DNA from: Escherichia phage phiA2-1
Reading direction: 5' to 3' (one strand)
Length of the DNA: 44,857 nt
Sequence record: OR861626.1
Shown: positions 19,369 to 33,890 of the stretch, piece by piece
Layout of the letters: every line of letters starts with the position of its first letter
Numbering within the stretch: position 1 is the stretch's first letter
Made by a program: the position numbers and the translations under genes
The notes under the pieces: generated by a model
What the model saw: the letters and a program-made list of their open reading frames with translations, nothing else
Told to the model about the DNA's origin: nothing
Databases searched by the model: none

Positions 19369-19390
19369 AAATAAGGCCCTTAATGGGCCT
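19362..19390. terminator. Bidirectional terminator-like hairpin
   Basis: AAGGCCC-TTAAT-GGGCCTT between convergent genes. Confidence 0.4.
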
Positions 19391-19565
19391 TCTTGTTAAA
19401 ACAATATCCAGCTGGTAAAACCGAATAAAGATTTTGATTTACCTCTCCATTGCTGTATTCACAACCTCTAATTGTAACTGAGTAGTCACTGATAAGAACT
19501 ATAGTTCTTTCACCGCCTGAACAACCAGCTAAAATCATTGCAGTGATAACGATTAATTTTTTCAT
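19380..19565 (-). CDS. Small outer-membrane lipoprotein, Cor-like superinfection-exclusion candidate
   Basis: 61 aa; lipoprotein signal MKKLIVITAMILAGC (lipobox LAGC); last gene of a minus-strand operon. Confidence 0.45.
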   Translation of the reverse strand: MKKLIVITAMILAGCSGGERTIVLISDYSVTIRGCEYSNGEVNQNLYSVLPAGYCFNKKAH

Positions 19566-32056: not shown

Positions 32057-32116
32057 TAGCACTTTTTGTCAAAACATAGCGACTAAAAGTCGCTATTATT
32101 GTTTTATCGAAACGAG
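32056..32116 (+). promoter_or_regulatory. Promoter-like cassette containing a perfect 9-bp-arm palindrome in the spacer
   Basis: ATAGCACTTTTTGTCAAAA, 22 nt (includes ATAGCGACT-AAA-AGTCGCTAT), TATTAT, ATCGAAACGAG leader. Confidence 0.5.
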
Positions 32117-32134
32117 ATGAGAGAGGAAAACAAA

Positions 32135-32275
32135 ATGATTCTAATTGGTATACTGACCGCTTTTTTCTATTATGCTACAGGTCTAACCTTTTTGATGTCC
32201 TTAGGTGCAGCCATAGGTACTTACTTCGTATCTGCTTTACTTGCCTTAATCGTGGGGGCACTGCGCAATCGCTAA
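32135..32275 (+). CDS. Small hydrophobic membrane peptide (46 aa), not in ORF track
   Basis: Hand translation MILIGILTAFFYYATGLTFLMSLGAAIGTYFVSALLALIVGALRNR; GAGAGAGG RBS-like leader. Confidence 0.3.
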   Translation: MILIGILTAFFYYATGLTFLMSLGAAIGTYFVSALLALIVGALRNR

Positions 32276-32291
32276 AATGAGAGAGAAAAAA

Positions 32292-32474
32292 ATGAACAAC
32301 GTTAAACTTAAGTGTGTATCAAACTCATCTAAGTCACTTGATTTTATCACTGGTGACACCTATGAGGCTCAGAATCGTGGCGATGGATTGTACAACGTGA
32401 CCACATCAAAAGGTTGGTGCTTGATTTGCCCACTTGACGGTTATTTCGTTAAGTTTGCTGAAGTTTCAGAATAA
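32292..32474 (+). CDS. Hypothetical small protein (paralog family)
   Basis: Track ORF from 32277; ATG 32292 has the better RBS; similar to 29958 and 32492 ORFs. Confidence 0.4.
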   Translation: MNNVKLKCVSNSSKSLDFITGDTYEAQNRGDGLYNVTTSKGWCLICPLDGYFVKFAEVSE

Positions 32475-32491
32475 ACAATAGAGAACTCAAA

Positions 32492-32665
32492 ATGACTAAA
32501 TTATACTGCGTTAAAAACAACTCAAAAACCCTTCCGTTTACCGAAAACCAGCCATATAGCGGAGAGGCTCTTGGCAGTGGTTACTACAAGATTTACGGCG
32601 ATGACATGACGCACATCCTTGCGCCTATTGATGGCTCTTTAGTGGAATTTATTATCGCAGATTAA
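32492..32665 (+). CDS. Hypothetical small protein (paralog family), not in ORF track
   Basis: Hand translation MTKLYCVKNNSKTLPFTENQPYSGEALGSGYYKIYGDDMTHILAPIDGSLVEFIIAD. Confidence 0.35.
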   Translation: MTKLYCVKNNSKTLPFTENQPYSGEALGSGYYKIYGDDMTHILAPIDGSLVEFIIAD

Positions 32666-32689: not shown

Positions 32690-32717
32690 GTGGGGGGCCT
32701 TTTGGCTCCCCTTTTTG
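32690..32717 (+). terminator. Rho-independent terminator
   Basis: GGGGGGCC-TTTT-GGCTCCCC plus T5. Confidence 0.5.
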
Positions 32718-32720
32718 TGC

Positions 32721-32749
32721 TTACAATCCACACCGGCCTAATGTATTAT
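32721..32749 (+). promoter_or_regulatory. Sigma70-type promoter upstream of lysis genes
   Basis: TTACAA, 17 nt, TATTAT. Confidence 0.4.
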
Positions 32750-32792
32750 ATTTACACTATCTATTGACAAATTAGGATTTTAAGGTGATCAC

Positions 32793-33008
32793 ATGAGGGA
32801 AGTACTTAACGCTGCTACGGCATCAACTGGCGGGGCAGCTGTAACTGGCGCCGCAACTGGTCAAATGACCATCGCAATAATCAGTATTATAGCTCTTGTC
32901 GTTTTTGGGTTATGGGGCGCTTACTGGAAGTTTAAGGATAGCCAGGCAATTAGACGGGCGCTTGAATCAGGAGACCTAAAGAAGGCAATAAAGATAAGGA
33001 GTAAGTAA
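32793..33008 (+). CDS. Holin (pinholin-like)
   Basis: 71 aa; Gly/Ala-rich weak TM segment then strong TM (MTIAIISIIALVVFGLWGAYW); charged C-terminus; directly before endolysin. Confidence 0.6.
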   Translation: MREVLNAATASTGGAAVTGAATGQMTIAIISIIALVVFGLWGAYWKFKDSQAIRRALESGDLKKAIKIRSK

Positions 33009-33493
33009 TGAAGCAGAAGCTTGTGATTAGTGCAGCGACGGCAGCGGCAATATACATCGCAGCGCCGATTATTGAGCTTGTTGAAGGTGTTGAGTACAGG
33101 CCTTATAAGGATATAGCAGGGGTGTGGACAATTTGCAGTGGGATAACTGGCCCAGACGTTATTATCGGAAAGACATACACAAAATCAGAGTGTAGGAGAT
33201 TGTTAGAAAAGCACATTCAGATTCACGGAAAGTATGTGCAGGATGCAGTTACCTATCCAATAGCACCAGAAACAATGGCGGCTTTAATCAGCTTTAGCTA
33301 CAACGTTGGCGGTTCCGCGATGAGGAAGTCAACGGCTGTCAGGTTGATTAACCAGGGTAAGATTGAGGAAGGATGCAAGGCTCTCGGGATGTGGAATAAA
33401 GCTATGGTTAATGGCAAGCTGAAGGTTATCAAGGGCCTAGCAAACAGGCGTAACGAGGAAATCAAATTATGCTTAAGCGGGGTGGGTAAATGA
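33008..33493 (+). CDS. SAR endolysin (T4-lysozyme-like muramidase)
   Basis: N-terminal Ala/Ile-rich SAR-like segment; catalytic-type spacing E-x8-D-x5-T (ELVEGVEYRPYKDIAGVWT). Confidence 0.7.
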   Translation: MKQKLVISAATAAAIYIAAPIIELVEGVEYRPYKDIAGVWTICSGITGPDVIIGKTYTKSECRRLLEKHIQIHGKYVQDAVTYPIAPETMAALISFSYNVGGSAMRKSTAVRLINQGKIEEGCKALGMWNKAMVNGKLKVIKGLANRRNEEIKLCLSGVGK

Positions 33494-33876
33494 GGGCTGT
33501 GGTAATTGCTGCGGTAATTCTGCTTTCCGGCTGTTCGGCAACATCTGCACTGACCGGGTTAATTGGCAGCAAACCGGAGATAAGTGCTCAGGCAGGTGCG
33601 GAGAATAACAAGGTTGGCGTTGGCCTGACTAACAAGGTTGATTCAAGTTCCAGCGCAAAGGCTGAAGTGAAGAACTCAAAGGTTGACACCCTTGATAGCT
33701 CGAGCGGAAAGAAGACTGCTGACAACTCAATCAAAGCGTCAACAATCACGGCAGAGAAGATTGAAATCACCAATAATGATTCGTCTGCCATACCGTGGAT
33801 TGGAAGCGGAATCATGTTGTGCATCATCATCATTCTGCTTTTAGTTATATTCAGGAAAAACAAAAAAGCCCCGTAA
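33490..33876 (+). CDS. Unimolecular spanin (lipoprotein signal plus C-terminal TMD)
   Basis: Lipobox LLSGC at N-terminus; C-terminal TM IMLCIIIILLLVIF; last gene of lysis cassette. Confidence 0.6.
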   Translation: MRAVVIAAVILLSGCSATSALTGLIGSKPEISAQAGAENNKVGVGLTNKVDSSSSAKAEVKNSKVDTLDSSSGKKTADNSIKASTITAEKIEITNNDSSAIPWIGSGIMLCIIIILLLVIFRKNKKAP

Positions 33877-33890
33877 TGGGGCTATTTTTA
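33860..33890. terminator. Bidirectional terminator
   Basis: AGCCCC-GTAA-TGGGGCT flanked by A-run and T-run. Confidence 0.5.

What the first reader, a model, noticed from the sequence alone, without database searches (positions are those of the whole stretch)
32793..33876. Lysis cassette of pinholin-like holin, SAR endolysin and unimolecular spanin
The holin has a weak Gly/Ala-rich first TMD and a strong second TMD. The endolysin has an N-terminal SAR-like segment and E-x8-D-x5-T catalytic spacing. The third gene combines an N-terminal lipobox (LLSGC) with a C-terminal TMD, the architecture of a unimolecular spanin, which is much rarer than two-component spanins.
Basis: partly seen in the sequence, partly recalled or inferred. 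Interest (0 to 1): 0.4.

Follow-up and report, generated by a model that had tools for sequence, protein, structure and literature searches.

The report
Ordinary T1-type phage lysis cassette
The three genes are the standard lysis cassette of a phage T1 relative (holin, membrane-tethered lysozyme, single-chain spanin), already deposited and annotated this way in public databases, so the finding is correct but ordinary.

Summary
There are three translationally coupled + strand genes: 32793-33008 (71 aa), 33008-33493 (161 aa) and 33490-33876 (128 aa). They sit between two hairpin terminators. The window is a Drexlerviridae (T1-like) coliphage, and gene order and sizes match phage T1 genes 13-12-11.

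- **Gene 1** belongs to the small T1-type holin family (59% identical to T1 gp13). It has a weak Gly/Ala/Ser/Thr-rich segment directly followed by a strong TMD.
- **Gene 2** is a GH24 lysozyme closest to the solved SAR endolysins R21 and RrrD (E about 3e-32). It has E26-x8-D35-x5-T41 and a Cys-free, Ala-rich N-terminal anchor.
- **Gene 3** is a homologue of T1 gp11, the experimentally characterised prototype unimolecular spanin. It has lipobox LSGC, Ser at +2, no periplasmic Cys and a C-terminal TMD.

The exact proteins are in NCBI as holin, lysozyme and unimolecular spanin of Escherichia phage phiA2-1. Published surveys already state that T1gp11-family spanins sit in pinholin plus SAR-endolysin cassettes.

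The pinholin label is the least secure part, because it rests on sequence inference and the protein shows no similarity to the phage 21 pinholin. Novelty: already known. Interest is low.

The parts
32692..32711 (+). Hairpin terminator ending the upstream operon. It separates the DUF7244 genes from the holin gene.
   Evidence: The pattern scan finds an 8-pair stem with 7 G-C pairs followed by a T-run. The RNA fold is -20.9 kcal/mol, z = -3.65. An equivalent hairpin lies before the holin gene in TR3, T1 and MM01.
32720..32778 (+). Two overlapping sigma-70-like promoter candidates for the cassette: CTTACA-18-TATTAT and TTTACA-16-TAGGAT.
   Evidence: Each matches the consensus at 9 of 12 positions, and identical hexamers are present in TR3. 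This is a consensus match only and the count is not significantly above shuffles.
32793..33008 (+). Holin of the T1 gp13 family, 71 aa. It has a weak G/A/S/T-rich segment at residues 4-23 (nt 32802-32861), a strong TMD at residues 25-45 (nt 32865-32927) and a basic C-terminal tail (+8/-3). The Shine-Dalgarno AAGGTG is at 32782-32787. There is a single start, because an in-frame TAA lies at 32781-32783.
   Evidence: searches (PHROG 2877, 2e-36; 59% identical to T1 gp13), 15, 38, 56, and 40 (deposited as holin WRH07508.1).
33008..33493 (+). SAR-type endolysin, a GH24 T4-lysozyme-like muramidase of 161 aa. The signal-anchor-release segment is residues 5-22 (nt 33020-33073). The catalytic residues are E26 (33083-33085), D35 (33110-33112) and T41 (33128-33130). 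The start overlaps the holin stop as TAATG.
   Evidence: Phage_lysozyme, 1.3e-36; 47% identical to T1 gp12; R21 3HDE/3HDF and RrrD 4ZPU at E about 3e-32, motif aligned; WRH07509.1.
33490..33876 (+). Unimolecular spanin of the T1 gp11 family, 128 aa. The lipoprotein signal peptide is residues 1-14. The lipobox L12-S13-G14-C15 is at nt 33523-33534, with Ser16 at +2. The Cys-free periplasmic segment runs from about residue 16 to 102. The C-terminal TMD is about residues 103-121 (nt 33796-33852). The start overlaps the endolysin stop as ATGA.
   Evidence: PHROG 1804, 2.6e-46; 39% identical to T1 gp11 over 122 aa, E 2e-24; WRH07510.1, 'unimolecular spanin'.
33867..33883 (.). Bidirectional hairpin terminator overlapping the spanin stop codon. 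It closes the cassette and also the convergent minus-strand operon.
   Evidence: One search finds it on both strands. The folds are -12.2 kcal/mol on + and -14.4 kcal/mol on -. Terminators are annotated at the same position in T1 and MM01.
32277..32665 (+). Two tandem DUF7244 (standalone SH3-like) genes, 32277-32474 and 32492-32665, upstream of the cassette. A 2026 paper proposes this family as an auxiliary lysis-module component. Membership in the functional unit is not established.
   Evidence: Pfam DUF7244 scores are 78 and 94 bits against a cutoff of 27. The two are 35% identical to each other. The proposal is in PMC13164509. Neither protein has a signal peptide, and a terminator separates them from the holin gene.

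Best explanation
This is the late lysis cassette of a T1-like (Drexlerviridae, Braunvirinae-related) coliphage. It is orthologous to phage T1 genes 13, 12 and 11.

Proposed mechanism, with shown and inferred steps marked:

1. The three genes form one unit between two hairpin terminators and are translationally coupled through overlapping stop and start codons. This is shown by the sequence.
2. The 71-aa holin accumulates harmlessly in the inner membrane. At a programmed time it triggers and collapses the proton motive force. Most probably it starts as a two-helix hairpin whose weak Gly/Ala/Thr-rich first helix leaves the bilayer, letting the second helix oligomerise into small holes. This is inferred by analogy with the phage 21 pinholin, which is not a homologue.
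3. The endolysin is exported by Sec and held inactive by its N-terminal signal-anchor-release helix. Depolarisation releases it into the periplasm, where it refolds and cleaves peptidoglycan using E26/D35/T41. This is inferred from homology to the structurally and functionally characterised R21.
4. The third protein is lipidated at Cys15 and sorted to the outer membrane, since it has Ser at +2. Its C-terminal TMD stays in the inner membrane, so one chain spans the periplasm through the murein mesh. Once the murein is gone, it collapses and fuses or disrupts the outer membrane. This is inferred from homology to T1 gp11, for which complementation of lambda Rz/Rz1 and the requirement for both anchors were shown experimentally.
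For: - **Coordinates and coupling:**
- **Identity of the window:** it is a Drexlerviridae phage. The locus is 87% identical at nucleotide level to phages TR1-3, CY1 and Rao1, whose genes are annotated holin, lysozyme and u-spanin.
- **Synteny with T1:** exonuclease ... DUF7244 - holin(71) - endolysin(162) - spanin(133) - terminator - convergent helicase operon.
- **Pairwise BLASTP to T1 gp13/12/11:** 59% (6e-32), 47% (3e-43) and 39% (2e-24).
- **Family matches:** PHROG and Pfam hits.
- **Endolysin:** it matches the solved R21 (3HDE, 3HDF) and RrrD (4ZPU) at about 3e-32, with the catalytic motif aligned.
- **Spanin features in close homologues:** of 120 listed (68-95% identical), 114 carry LSGC, LTGC or FSGC. 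The other 6 have LPGC, LYGC or LFGC, which my pattern missed. 113 of the 114 have Ser at +2 and all 114 have no periplasmic Cys.
- **No second spanin system:** the only other lipobox ORF in the window is a Cor-like gene near the tail genes. The ORFs embedded in or antisense to the cassette have no family match.
- **Terminators:**
- **Literature:** PMC6139136, PMC11447400 and PMC13164509 describe exactly this pinholin / SAR endolysin / u-spanin module for T1-like phages.
- **Deposited annotation of the identical proteins:**
Against: - Nothing contradicts the overall assignment.
- The holin's first segment is only weakly hydrophobic (KD about 0.9). It has essentially no loop before TMD2, and the T1 record annotates a single TMD.
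- The holin has no similarity to S21 and no dual-start motif.
- AlphaFold2 did not fold the spanin periplasmic domain (mean pLDDT 52; 40-47 across residues 21-100). The beta-rich character therefore rests only on period-2 hydrophobic alternation and on homology.
- Identity to T1 gp11 is 39%, just under the 40% single-link threshold used by Kongari et al. Linkage through intermediate members is evident.
- No function was tested here.
Confidence: 0.93

Rival explanations
1. The holin is not a two-TMD pinholin. It has a single TMD (residues 25-45) in N-out/C-in topology, and its conserved Gly/Ala/Thr-rich N-terminal 24 residues are periplasmic or interfacial from the start. The rest of the cassette would work as described.
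For: - The N-terminal segment has KD about 0.9 and an estimated insertion dG of about +6 kcal/mol.
- Only Gly-Gln lies between the two segments.
- The T1 and MM01 records annotate one TMD.
- There is no similarity to S21.
- I found no experimental topology data for this family.
Against: - By the same scale, the experimentally established SAR TMD1 of S21 68 is even less hydrophobic, with no 17-residue window above KD 0.6, and it has the same 55% G/A/S/T content.
- The uncharged run is a constant 42 residues, enough for two helices, in 6 of the 9 family members compared (44 in a seventh). In the other 2 a Glu splits it into pieces of 18-25 and 20-21 residues, as expected for a hairpin turn.
- The Young laboratory and later authors classify T1-type holins as class II pinholins.
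- The end state of a pinholin, with TMD1 out, has the same topology. The two models therefore differ only in the starting state.
Confidence: 0.2
2. The N-terminal hydrophobic segment of the endolysin is an ordinary cleavable signal peptide. The enzyme would then be secreted constitutively and not be a membrane-tethered SAR endolysin.
For: The segment is short at 18 uncharged residues, is preceded by two Lys, and contains Ala-rich stretches (AAA, IAA) that resemble AXA sites.
Against: - The best candidate cleavage site, IAA|P, has Pro at +1, which blocks signal peptidase I. This rests on established knowledge.
- The catalytic E26 lies only 4 residues after the segment.
- The alignment to R21 extends into its SAR region, query residues 11-158 against chain residues 19-163.
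- The paired holin is of the type found with SAR endolysins.
- T1 gp12 and TLS gp68 are predicted SAR endolysins.
Confidence: 0.06
3. The third gene is a generic membrane-anchored lipoprotein, for example a superinfection-exclusion factor. Outer-membrane disruption would then be done by something else.
For: Pfam and NCBIfam have no family above threshold for it, and AlphaFold2 gives no confident fold.
Against: - It is homologous over its full length to T1 gp11, which has been shown experimentally to be a spanin.
- It matches PHROG 1804 at 2.6e-46.
- It is invariably the last gene of the lysis cassette, coupled to the endolysin by an ATGA overlap.
- The window contains no two-component spanin candidate.
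- A separate Cor-like lipoprotein is already present at 19380-19565.
Confidence: 0.02

Closest known systems
Phage T1 lysis cassette: gp13 holin, gp12 endolysin, gp11 u-spanin (NC_005833; Kongari et al. 2018, PMC6139136)
   Same: Gene order, gene sizes (71/162/133 aa in T1 against 71/161/128 aa here), flanking genes and the terminator positions are the same. The LSGC lipobox is identical. The proteins are homologous at 59%, 47% and 39% identity.
   Different: This phage belongs to a different subfamily (Braunvirinae-like rather than Tunavirinae). Its spanin signal peptide is shorter, with Cys15 against Cys22 in T1. It has no HNH endonuclease gene upstream, and it has two DUF7244 genes instead of one.
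Escherichia phages TR1, TR2, TR3, CY1, Rao1, ES and AN_ECEAS, and the deposited record of Escherichia phage phiA2-1
   Same: phiA2-1 carries the identical proteins on a 44857-bp contig, named holin, lysozyme and unimolecular spanin. The other phages are 84-88% identical at nucleotide level across the locus, with 90-95% identical proteins and the same annotation.
   Different: There is no functional difference. In TR3 the upstream region carries polynucleotide kinase and ATPase genes and a single DUF7244 gene.
Phage 21 lysis cassette: S21 pinholin, R21 SAR endolysin, Rz/Rz1
   Same: The endolysin is a true homologue of R21 (E 2.8e-32, catalytic E/D/T aligned, Cys-free SAR domain). The holin has the same size (71 aa) and the same weak-TMD1 / strong-TMD2 / basic-tail layout.
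   Different: The holin shows no sequence similarity to S21. It has no dual-start antiholin and no polar loop between its two hydrophobic segments. Phage 21 uses a two-component spanin, not a unimolecular one.
Lambda Rz/Rz1 two-component spanin
   Same: It has the same role and the same end topology: a lipoylated outer-membrane anchor linked to an inner-membrane TMD across the periplasm. T1 gp11 complements a lambda RzRz1 defect (PMC6139136).
   Different: This is a single polypeptide. It has no coiled-coil helices, no periplasmic cysteines and no embedded gene, and it has no sequence similarity to Rz or Rz1.

Membership tests
T1 gp11-type unimolecular spanin | N-terminal lipoprotein signal peptide with a lipobox and an invariant Cys | tested here: met
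   The N-terminus is MRAVVIAAVILL-SG-C15, with lipobox LSGC identical to T1 gp11 (PMC6139136). Cys is invariant in 30 aligned homologues.
T1 gp11-type unimolecular spanin | Outer-membrane sorting signal, meaning no Asp at +2 after the lipidated Cys | tested here: met
   Ser16 is at +2. Ser occupies this position in 113 of the 114 close homologues whose lipobox my pattern detected.
T1 gp11-type unimolecular spanin | C-terminal transmembrane domain followed by a basic cytoplasmic tail | tested here: met
   Residues 103-121 have KD 2.93 and summed Hessa dG -4.6, followed by RKNKK. AlphaFold2 predicts a helix at 103-123; the 10-residue pLDDT block 111-120 averages 86.
T1 gp11-type unimolecular spanin | Periplasmic domain without cysteines, with a short helix followed by several beta elements and no coiled coil | tested here: inconclusive
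   The absence of periplasmic Cys is met. A short amphipathic helix at about residues 17-24 is predicted. Four stretches show period-2 hydrophobic alternation (24-34, 36-44, 49-59, 78-91) and parallel those in T1 gp11. AlphaFold2 gave pLDDT 40-47 for this domain, so no fold was obtained.
T1 gp11-type unimolecular spanin | Sequence homology to T1 gp11 | tested here: met
   BLASTP gives 39% identity over 122 aa with E 2e-24. PHROG 1804 matches at 2.6e-46 over profile positions 7-133 of 136. tblastn finds T1 itself and 1125 phage records.
T1 gp11-type unimolecular spanin | Last gene of the lysis cassette, directly after the endolysin gene | tested here: met
   It overlaps the endolysin stop as ATGA and is followed by a terminator. 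The position is the same in T1, TR3 and MM01.
T1 gp11-type unimolecular spanin | Actual lipidation, and outer-membrane disruption shown by Rz/Rz1 complementation and spherical cells on deletion | not testable with these tools
   This needs wet-lab work. It was shown for T1 gp11 only (PMC6139136).
SAR endolysin, R21 type (GH24) | T4-lysozyme-like catalytic domain with the E-x8-D/C-x5-T triad | tested here: met
   Pfam Phage_lysozyme matches at 1.3e-36. E26, D35 and T41 were read from the sequence and align with the EGV..YKD..VWT motif of R21.
SAR endolysin, R21 type (GH24) | N-terminal weakly hydrophobic TMD rich in Gly/Ala/Ser/Thr, preceded by basic residues and not cleaved | tested here: met
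   K2 and K4 precede L5-I22, which has 50% G/A/S/T and KD 2.05, comparable to the R21 SAR segment at KD 2.29. Non-cleavage is inferred from Pro20 at +1 of the only AXA-like site. It was not tested.
SAR endolysin, R21 type (GH24) | No Cys in the SAR domain, implying steric or refolding regulation rather than P1 Lyz-type disulfide isomerisation | tested here: met
   There is no Cys in residues 1-25. The closest solved relatives are R21 and RrrD. The link from this feature to the regulatory class comes from my own knowledge of Sun et al. 2009 and Kuty et al. 2010.
SAR endolysin, R21 type (GH24) | Membrane tethering and release on depolarisation | not testable with these tools
   This requires fractionation with and without an uncoupler.
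Pinholin (class II holin, S21 68 paradigm) | Two TMDs, N-in/C-in, with the first being SAR-like | tested here: inconclusive
   TMD2 is clear. Segment 4-23 is uncharged, G/A/S/T-rich and more hydrophobic than S21 TMD1 on the KD scale. The 42-residue uncharged run is conserved, with a Glu at the junction in two divergent members. However, the estimated insertion energy is unfavourable, and some database records list one TMD.
Pinholin (class II holin, S21 68 paradigm) | Sequence membership in the phage 21 S family | tested here: not met
   BLASTP finds no alignment at E <= 100. The protein belongs instead to the T1-type holin family: PHROG 2877, precomputed Pfam PF27028, and only 10 representative clusters in 1.8 billion proteins. 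It may work like a pinholin but is not an S21 homologue.
Pinholin (class II holin, S21 68 paradigm) | Genetic pairing with a SAR endolysin | tested here: met
   The adjacent, translationally coupled gene is an R21-like SAR endolysin.
Pinholin (class II holin, S21 68 paradigm) | Dual-start holin/antiholin motif (typical of the family, not obligatory) | tested here: not met
   There is a single ATG. An in-frame TAA lies four codons upstream, and the next Met is M25, inside TMD2.
Pinholin (class II holin, S21 68 paradigm) | Formation of small (about 2 nm) holes that depolarise but do not pass proteins | not testable with these tools
   This needs a lysis assay pairing the holin with a cytoplasmic endolysin and, separately, with a SAR endolysin.

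The most novel reading that the evidence does not exclude
The T1-type holin family has 10 representative clusters worldwide, is unrelated in sequence to S21, and to my knowledge has never been dissected experimentally. It may not be a pinholin in the S21 sense. It could be a distinct class: one true TMD plus a strongly conserved Gly/Ala/Thr-rich N-terminal segment (AATxSTGGAxxxGAATGQ) acting as a periplasmic or interfacial timing element, evolved independently to work with SAR endolysins and u-spanins. A smaller point: a conserved terminator lies between the DUF7244 (standalone SH3) genes and the holin gene, and those proteins lack any export signal. Both facts argue that the SH3 protein, recently proposed as an auxiliary lysis factor, is not co-expressed with the cassette or co-localised with it.
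Probability: 0.15. Interest if true: 0.3.

Novelty: already known. Interest (0 to 1): 0.08.

Why it matters
It adds little. The cassette is the standard lysis module of T1-like phages, described in the literature, and it is annotated the same way in the deposited record of this very phage. Its practical value is correct annotation, and it gives one more sequence for studying how unimolecular spanins fuse or disrupt membranes, a mechanism that is still poorly understood. The only open scientific point it touches is the untested topology and hole size of the T1-type holin family.

Tried and rejected
- **AlphaFold2 on the spanin.** I used a 30-sequence alignment. Mean pLDDT was 52 and the periplasmic domain was unfolded. 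No fold search was run because matches would be meaningless.
- **Pfam and NCBIfam.** Neither has a family above threshold for the holin or the spanin in the local copies. PHROGs does.
- **Holin homologue searches.** The word-indexed search found only 9 close homologues. The exhaustive representative search found 10 clusters and no bridge to S21 or other holin families.
- **Direct BLASTP of the holin against S21.** Nothing was found.
- **Kongari et al. 2018, J Virol (PMC6206483).** This paper covers gp11 localisation and internal starts. It is not held, so the inhibitory internal-start product reported for T1 gp11 could not be mapped. In this gene the only internal candidate in the periplasmic part is GTG at codon 60, preceded by AAAGG. 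This remains unverified.
- **Hidden two-component spanin or embedded o-spanin.** I rejected this. ORFs embedded in or antisense to the cassette have no family match. The only other lipobox ORF (19380-19565) is Cor-like and sits beside the tail genes.
- **Small hydrophobic ORF at 32099-32275 as antiholin or second holin.** I rejected this as well. The Pfam holin hit is far below threshold (E 0.019; 15.5 bits against a cutoff of 28.4). In related phages the gene lies far from the lysis cassette.
Full report
**Observation.** The stop and start codons overlap as TAATG and ATGA, and each start has a Shine-Dalgarno-like sequence (AAGGTG, AGGAG, GGGGTGGG). The holin has only one possible start, because an in-frame TAA lies four codons upstream.

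A strong hairpin with a T-run lies 80 nt upstream at 32692-32711 (-20.9 kcal/mol, z = -3.65). A bidirectional hairpin terminator at 33867-33883 overlaps the last stop codon. Two promoter-like hexamer pairs lie between the upstream terminator and the holin start. They are consensus matches only.

- **Holin.** Residues 4-45 form one uncharged run of 42 residues. The first half (VLNAATASTGGAAVTGAATG) is weakly hydrophobic, with best 17-residue KD 0.91 and summed Hessa scale about +6 kcal/mol. The second half is a strong TMD, with KD 2.6 and about -2.5 kcal/mol. A basic tail (+8/-3) follows.
- **Endolysin.** K2 and K4 precede an 18-residue Ala-rich uncharged segment, L5-I22. The motif E26-x8-D35-x5-T41 is present as stated.
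- **Third protein.** It has MRAVVIAAVILL-SG-C15 (lipobox LSGC), Ser at +2, no further Cys before the C-terminal TMD at about residues 103-121, and a basic tail, RKNKK.

**What the window is.** The locus is 84-88% identical at nucleotide level to Escherichia phages CY1, TR1-3, Rao1, ES and AN_ECEAS. TR3 is classified as Drexlerviridae, Braunvirinae. Several of these records annotate the three genes as holin, lysozyme (or SAR endolysin) and u-spanin.

An exact-sequence look-up shows all three proteins are already deposited from a 44857-bp contig, the same length as the window. They are holin WRH07508.1, lysozyme WRH07509.1 and unimolecular spanin WRH07510.1 of Escherichia phage phiA2-1.

Synteny with phage T1 is complete: DNA-repair exonuclease, small DUF7244 gene, holin gene 13 (71 aa), endolysin gene 12 (162 aa), gene 11 (133 aa), terminator, then a convergent operon ending in a helicase (window neighbours identified). 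BLASTP against the T1 proteins gives 59% (6e-32), 47% (3e-43) and 39% (2e-24) identity.

**Gene by gene.**

*Holin.* It matches PHROG 2877 'holin' end to end (2e-36), and homologues occur in 824 phage records. The family is compact. An exhaustive HMMER scan of 1.84 billion representatives found only 10 clusters.

Nine diverse members share the same layout. It is a 42-residue uncharged run (44 in one member), or in two divergent members two runs of 18-25 and 20-21 residues split by a Glu at the junction. The N-segment KD is 0.8-1.3 and the TMD KD is 1.9-2.9, followed by a basic tail.

There is no similarity to the phage 21 pinholin. I verified that sequence against the phage 21 record. By the same scale, however, the experimentally established SAR TMD1 of S21 is even less hydrophobic and equally G/A/S/T-rich. 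The two-helix, pinholin-like reading is therefore reasonable. It is also the one given in the literature for T1-type holins (PMC6139136; PMC11447400; PMC13164509). It remains an inference. The original T1 and MM01 annotations list a single TMD, and I found no experimental topology study.

*Endolysin.* It is Pfam Phage_lysozyme (1.3e-36). Its closest solved structures are R21 (3HDE, 3HDF) and E. coli RrrD (4ZPU) at about 3e-32. The alignment runs from inside the N-terminal hydrophobic segment to the C-terminus, and the EGV..YKD..VWT catalytic motif is aligned. The SAR segment has no Cys. From my knowledge of the field, that places it with the R21-type refolding-regulated enzymes rather than the P1 Lyz disulfide-isomerisation type.

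*Spanin.* It matches PHROG 1804 full-length (2.6e-46). tblastn finds 1125 phage records, including T1 itself. Of the 120 listed close homologues, 114 carry LSGC, LTGC or FSGC; 113 of those have Ser at +2 and all 114 have zero periplasmic Cys. The other six have LPGC, LYGC or LFGC.

AlphaFold2 predicted only the signal helix, a short helix at 17-24 and the C-terminal TMD helix. The periplasmic domain had pLDDT 40-47. A simple hydrophobic-moment scan shows one short alpha-type stretch followed by four stretches with period-2 alternation, paralleling T1 gp11. This agrees with the published pattern of a short helix followed by four or more beta elements.

The mature periplasmic segment has about 88 residues. 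It could span a periplasm of about 20-25 nm only in a largely extended conformation (88 x 0.33 nm is about 29 nm, against about 13 nm as a helix). This is my inference.

**No alternative spanin system.** ORFs embedded in or antisense to the cassette have no family match. A scan of all 1055 possible ORF starts in the window found only one other lipobox ORF, at 19380-19565 on the minus strand. That ORF sits next to the tail-tip genes and is weakly Cor-like.

**Mechanism.** The unit is shown to be a compact, translationally coupled, terminator-bracketed cassette. The remaining steps are inferred from homology.

1. The holin accumulates in the inner membrane and triggers, collapsing the membrane potential, most probably through small holes after its weak first helix leaves the bilayer.
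2. The Sec-exported, membrane-tethered endolysin is released, refolds and degrades the murein.
3. The spanin, lipid-anchored in the outer membrane and TMD-anchored in the inner membrane, is freed from the murein mesh and disrupts or fuses the outer membrane.

Step 3 is supported by experiments on T1 gp11. It complements lambda RzRz1, and a lipobox substitution test has been reported (PMC6139136). Step 2 is supported by work on R21. The pinholin detail of step 1 is the least certain.

**Comparison and novelty.** This is the textbook T1-type module. Kongari et al. state that the T1gp11 family is the largest u-spanin family and that all but two of its members sit in pinholin plus SAR-endolysin cassettes. 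A 2026 analysis found the exonuclease-holin-endolysin-spanin module in 508 of 522 Drexlerviridae genomes. The finding is therefore correct but already known, and I score interest at 0.08.

**Surroundings.**
- **DUF7244 genes.** Two tandem DUF7244 genes lie upstream at 32277-32474 and 32492-32665 (78 and 94 bits against a cutoff of 27). They are only 35% identical to each other. This family was recently described as a standalone SH3 domain and proposed as an auxiliary lysis factor.
- **Doubts about that proposal.** Both proteins lack any signal peptide. A hairpin terminator separates this gene from the holin gene here and in TR3, T1 and MM01. Both facts argue against co-expression with the cassette and against access to the periplasm before lysis.
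- **Small hydrophobic ORF.** The ORF at 32099-32275 is not lysis-linked in related phages.

**Limits.** No function was tested. TM and lipoprotein calls rest on hydropathy scales and pattern matching, not on dedicated predictors.

Noticed in passing
window 32277-32474 and 32492-32665 (+): Two tandem genes of Pfam DUF7244, the standalone SH3-like domain at the T1 gene 14 position. They are only 35% identical to each other. The upstream copy is 63% identical to the single copy of Rogunavirinae phage MM01, so this looks like two divergent alleles side by side, not a recent duplication. T1, TR3 and MM01 each have one copy. Neither protein has an export signal.
   Followed up: partly
window 32692-32711 (+); L002 1668-1694; L001 2593-2612; L003 2434-2455: A hairpin terminator lies between the DUF7244 gene and the holin gene in phages of three Drexlerviridae subfamilies. 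This suggests that the SH3-like gene, proposed in PMC13164509 as a lysis-module component, ends the preceding operon rather than being co-transcribed with the lysis genes.
   Followed up: partly
window 19380-19565 (-): A 61-aa ORF with a lipoprotein signal (MKKLIVITAMILAGC) lies just downstream of the tail-tip and receptor-binding genes on the opposite strand. It has weak PHROG matches to Cor superinfection exclusion (7e-5) and to an Rz-like spanin family (1e-4). Identical copies occur in only 5 phage records, all annotated hypothetical. It is probably a receptor-blocking superinfection-exclusion lipoprotein.
   Followed up: partly
window 32099-32275 (+): A small, very hydrophobic ORF (58 aa, about two TMD-length segments) with a weak match to PHROG 16572 (unknown function) and a sub-threshold Pfam holin-X hit (E 0.019). 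Homologues occur in only 4 related phages, and in TR3 at least far from the lysis cassette, so here it appears to have moved or been inserted between the exonuclease and DUF7244 genes.
   Followed up: partly
window 33490-33876, codon 60 (GTG at 33667-33669): This is the only internal start candidate in the periplasmic part of the spanin gene, a GTG preceded by AAAGG. From memory of the abstract of Kongari et al. 2018 (J Virol), T1 gp11 makes an inhibitory shorter product from internal starts. Whether this site corresponds could not be checked because the paper is not held.
   Followed up: no
one search hits (for example Klebsiella phages KpV48, SU552A, F19, about 43-44 kb): T1gp11-family u-spanins also occur in several hundred Klebsiella phage records, including podophage-named records (vB_KpnP_*). 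Holin-family hits are fewer (824 records against 1125), so the spanin family travels with other holins as well.
   Followed up: no
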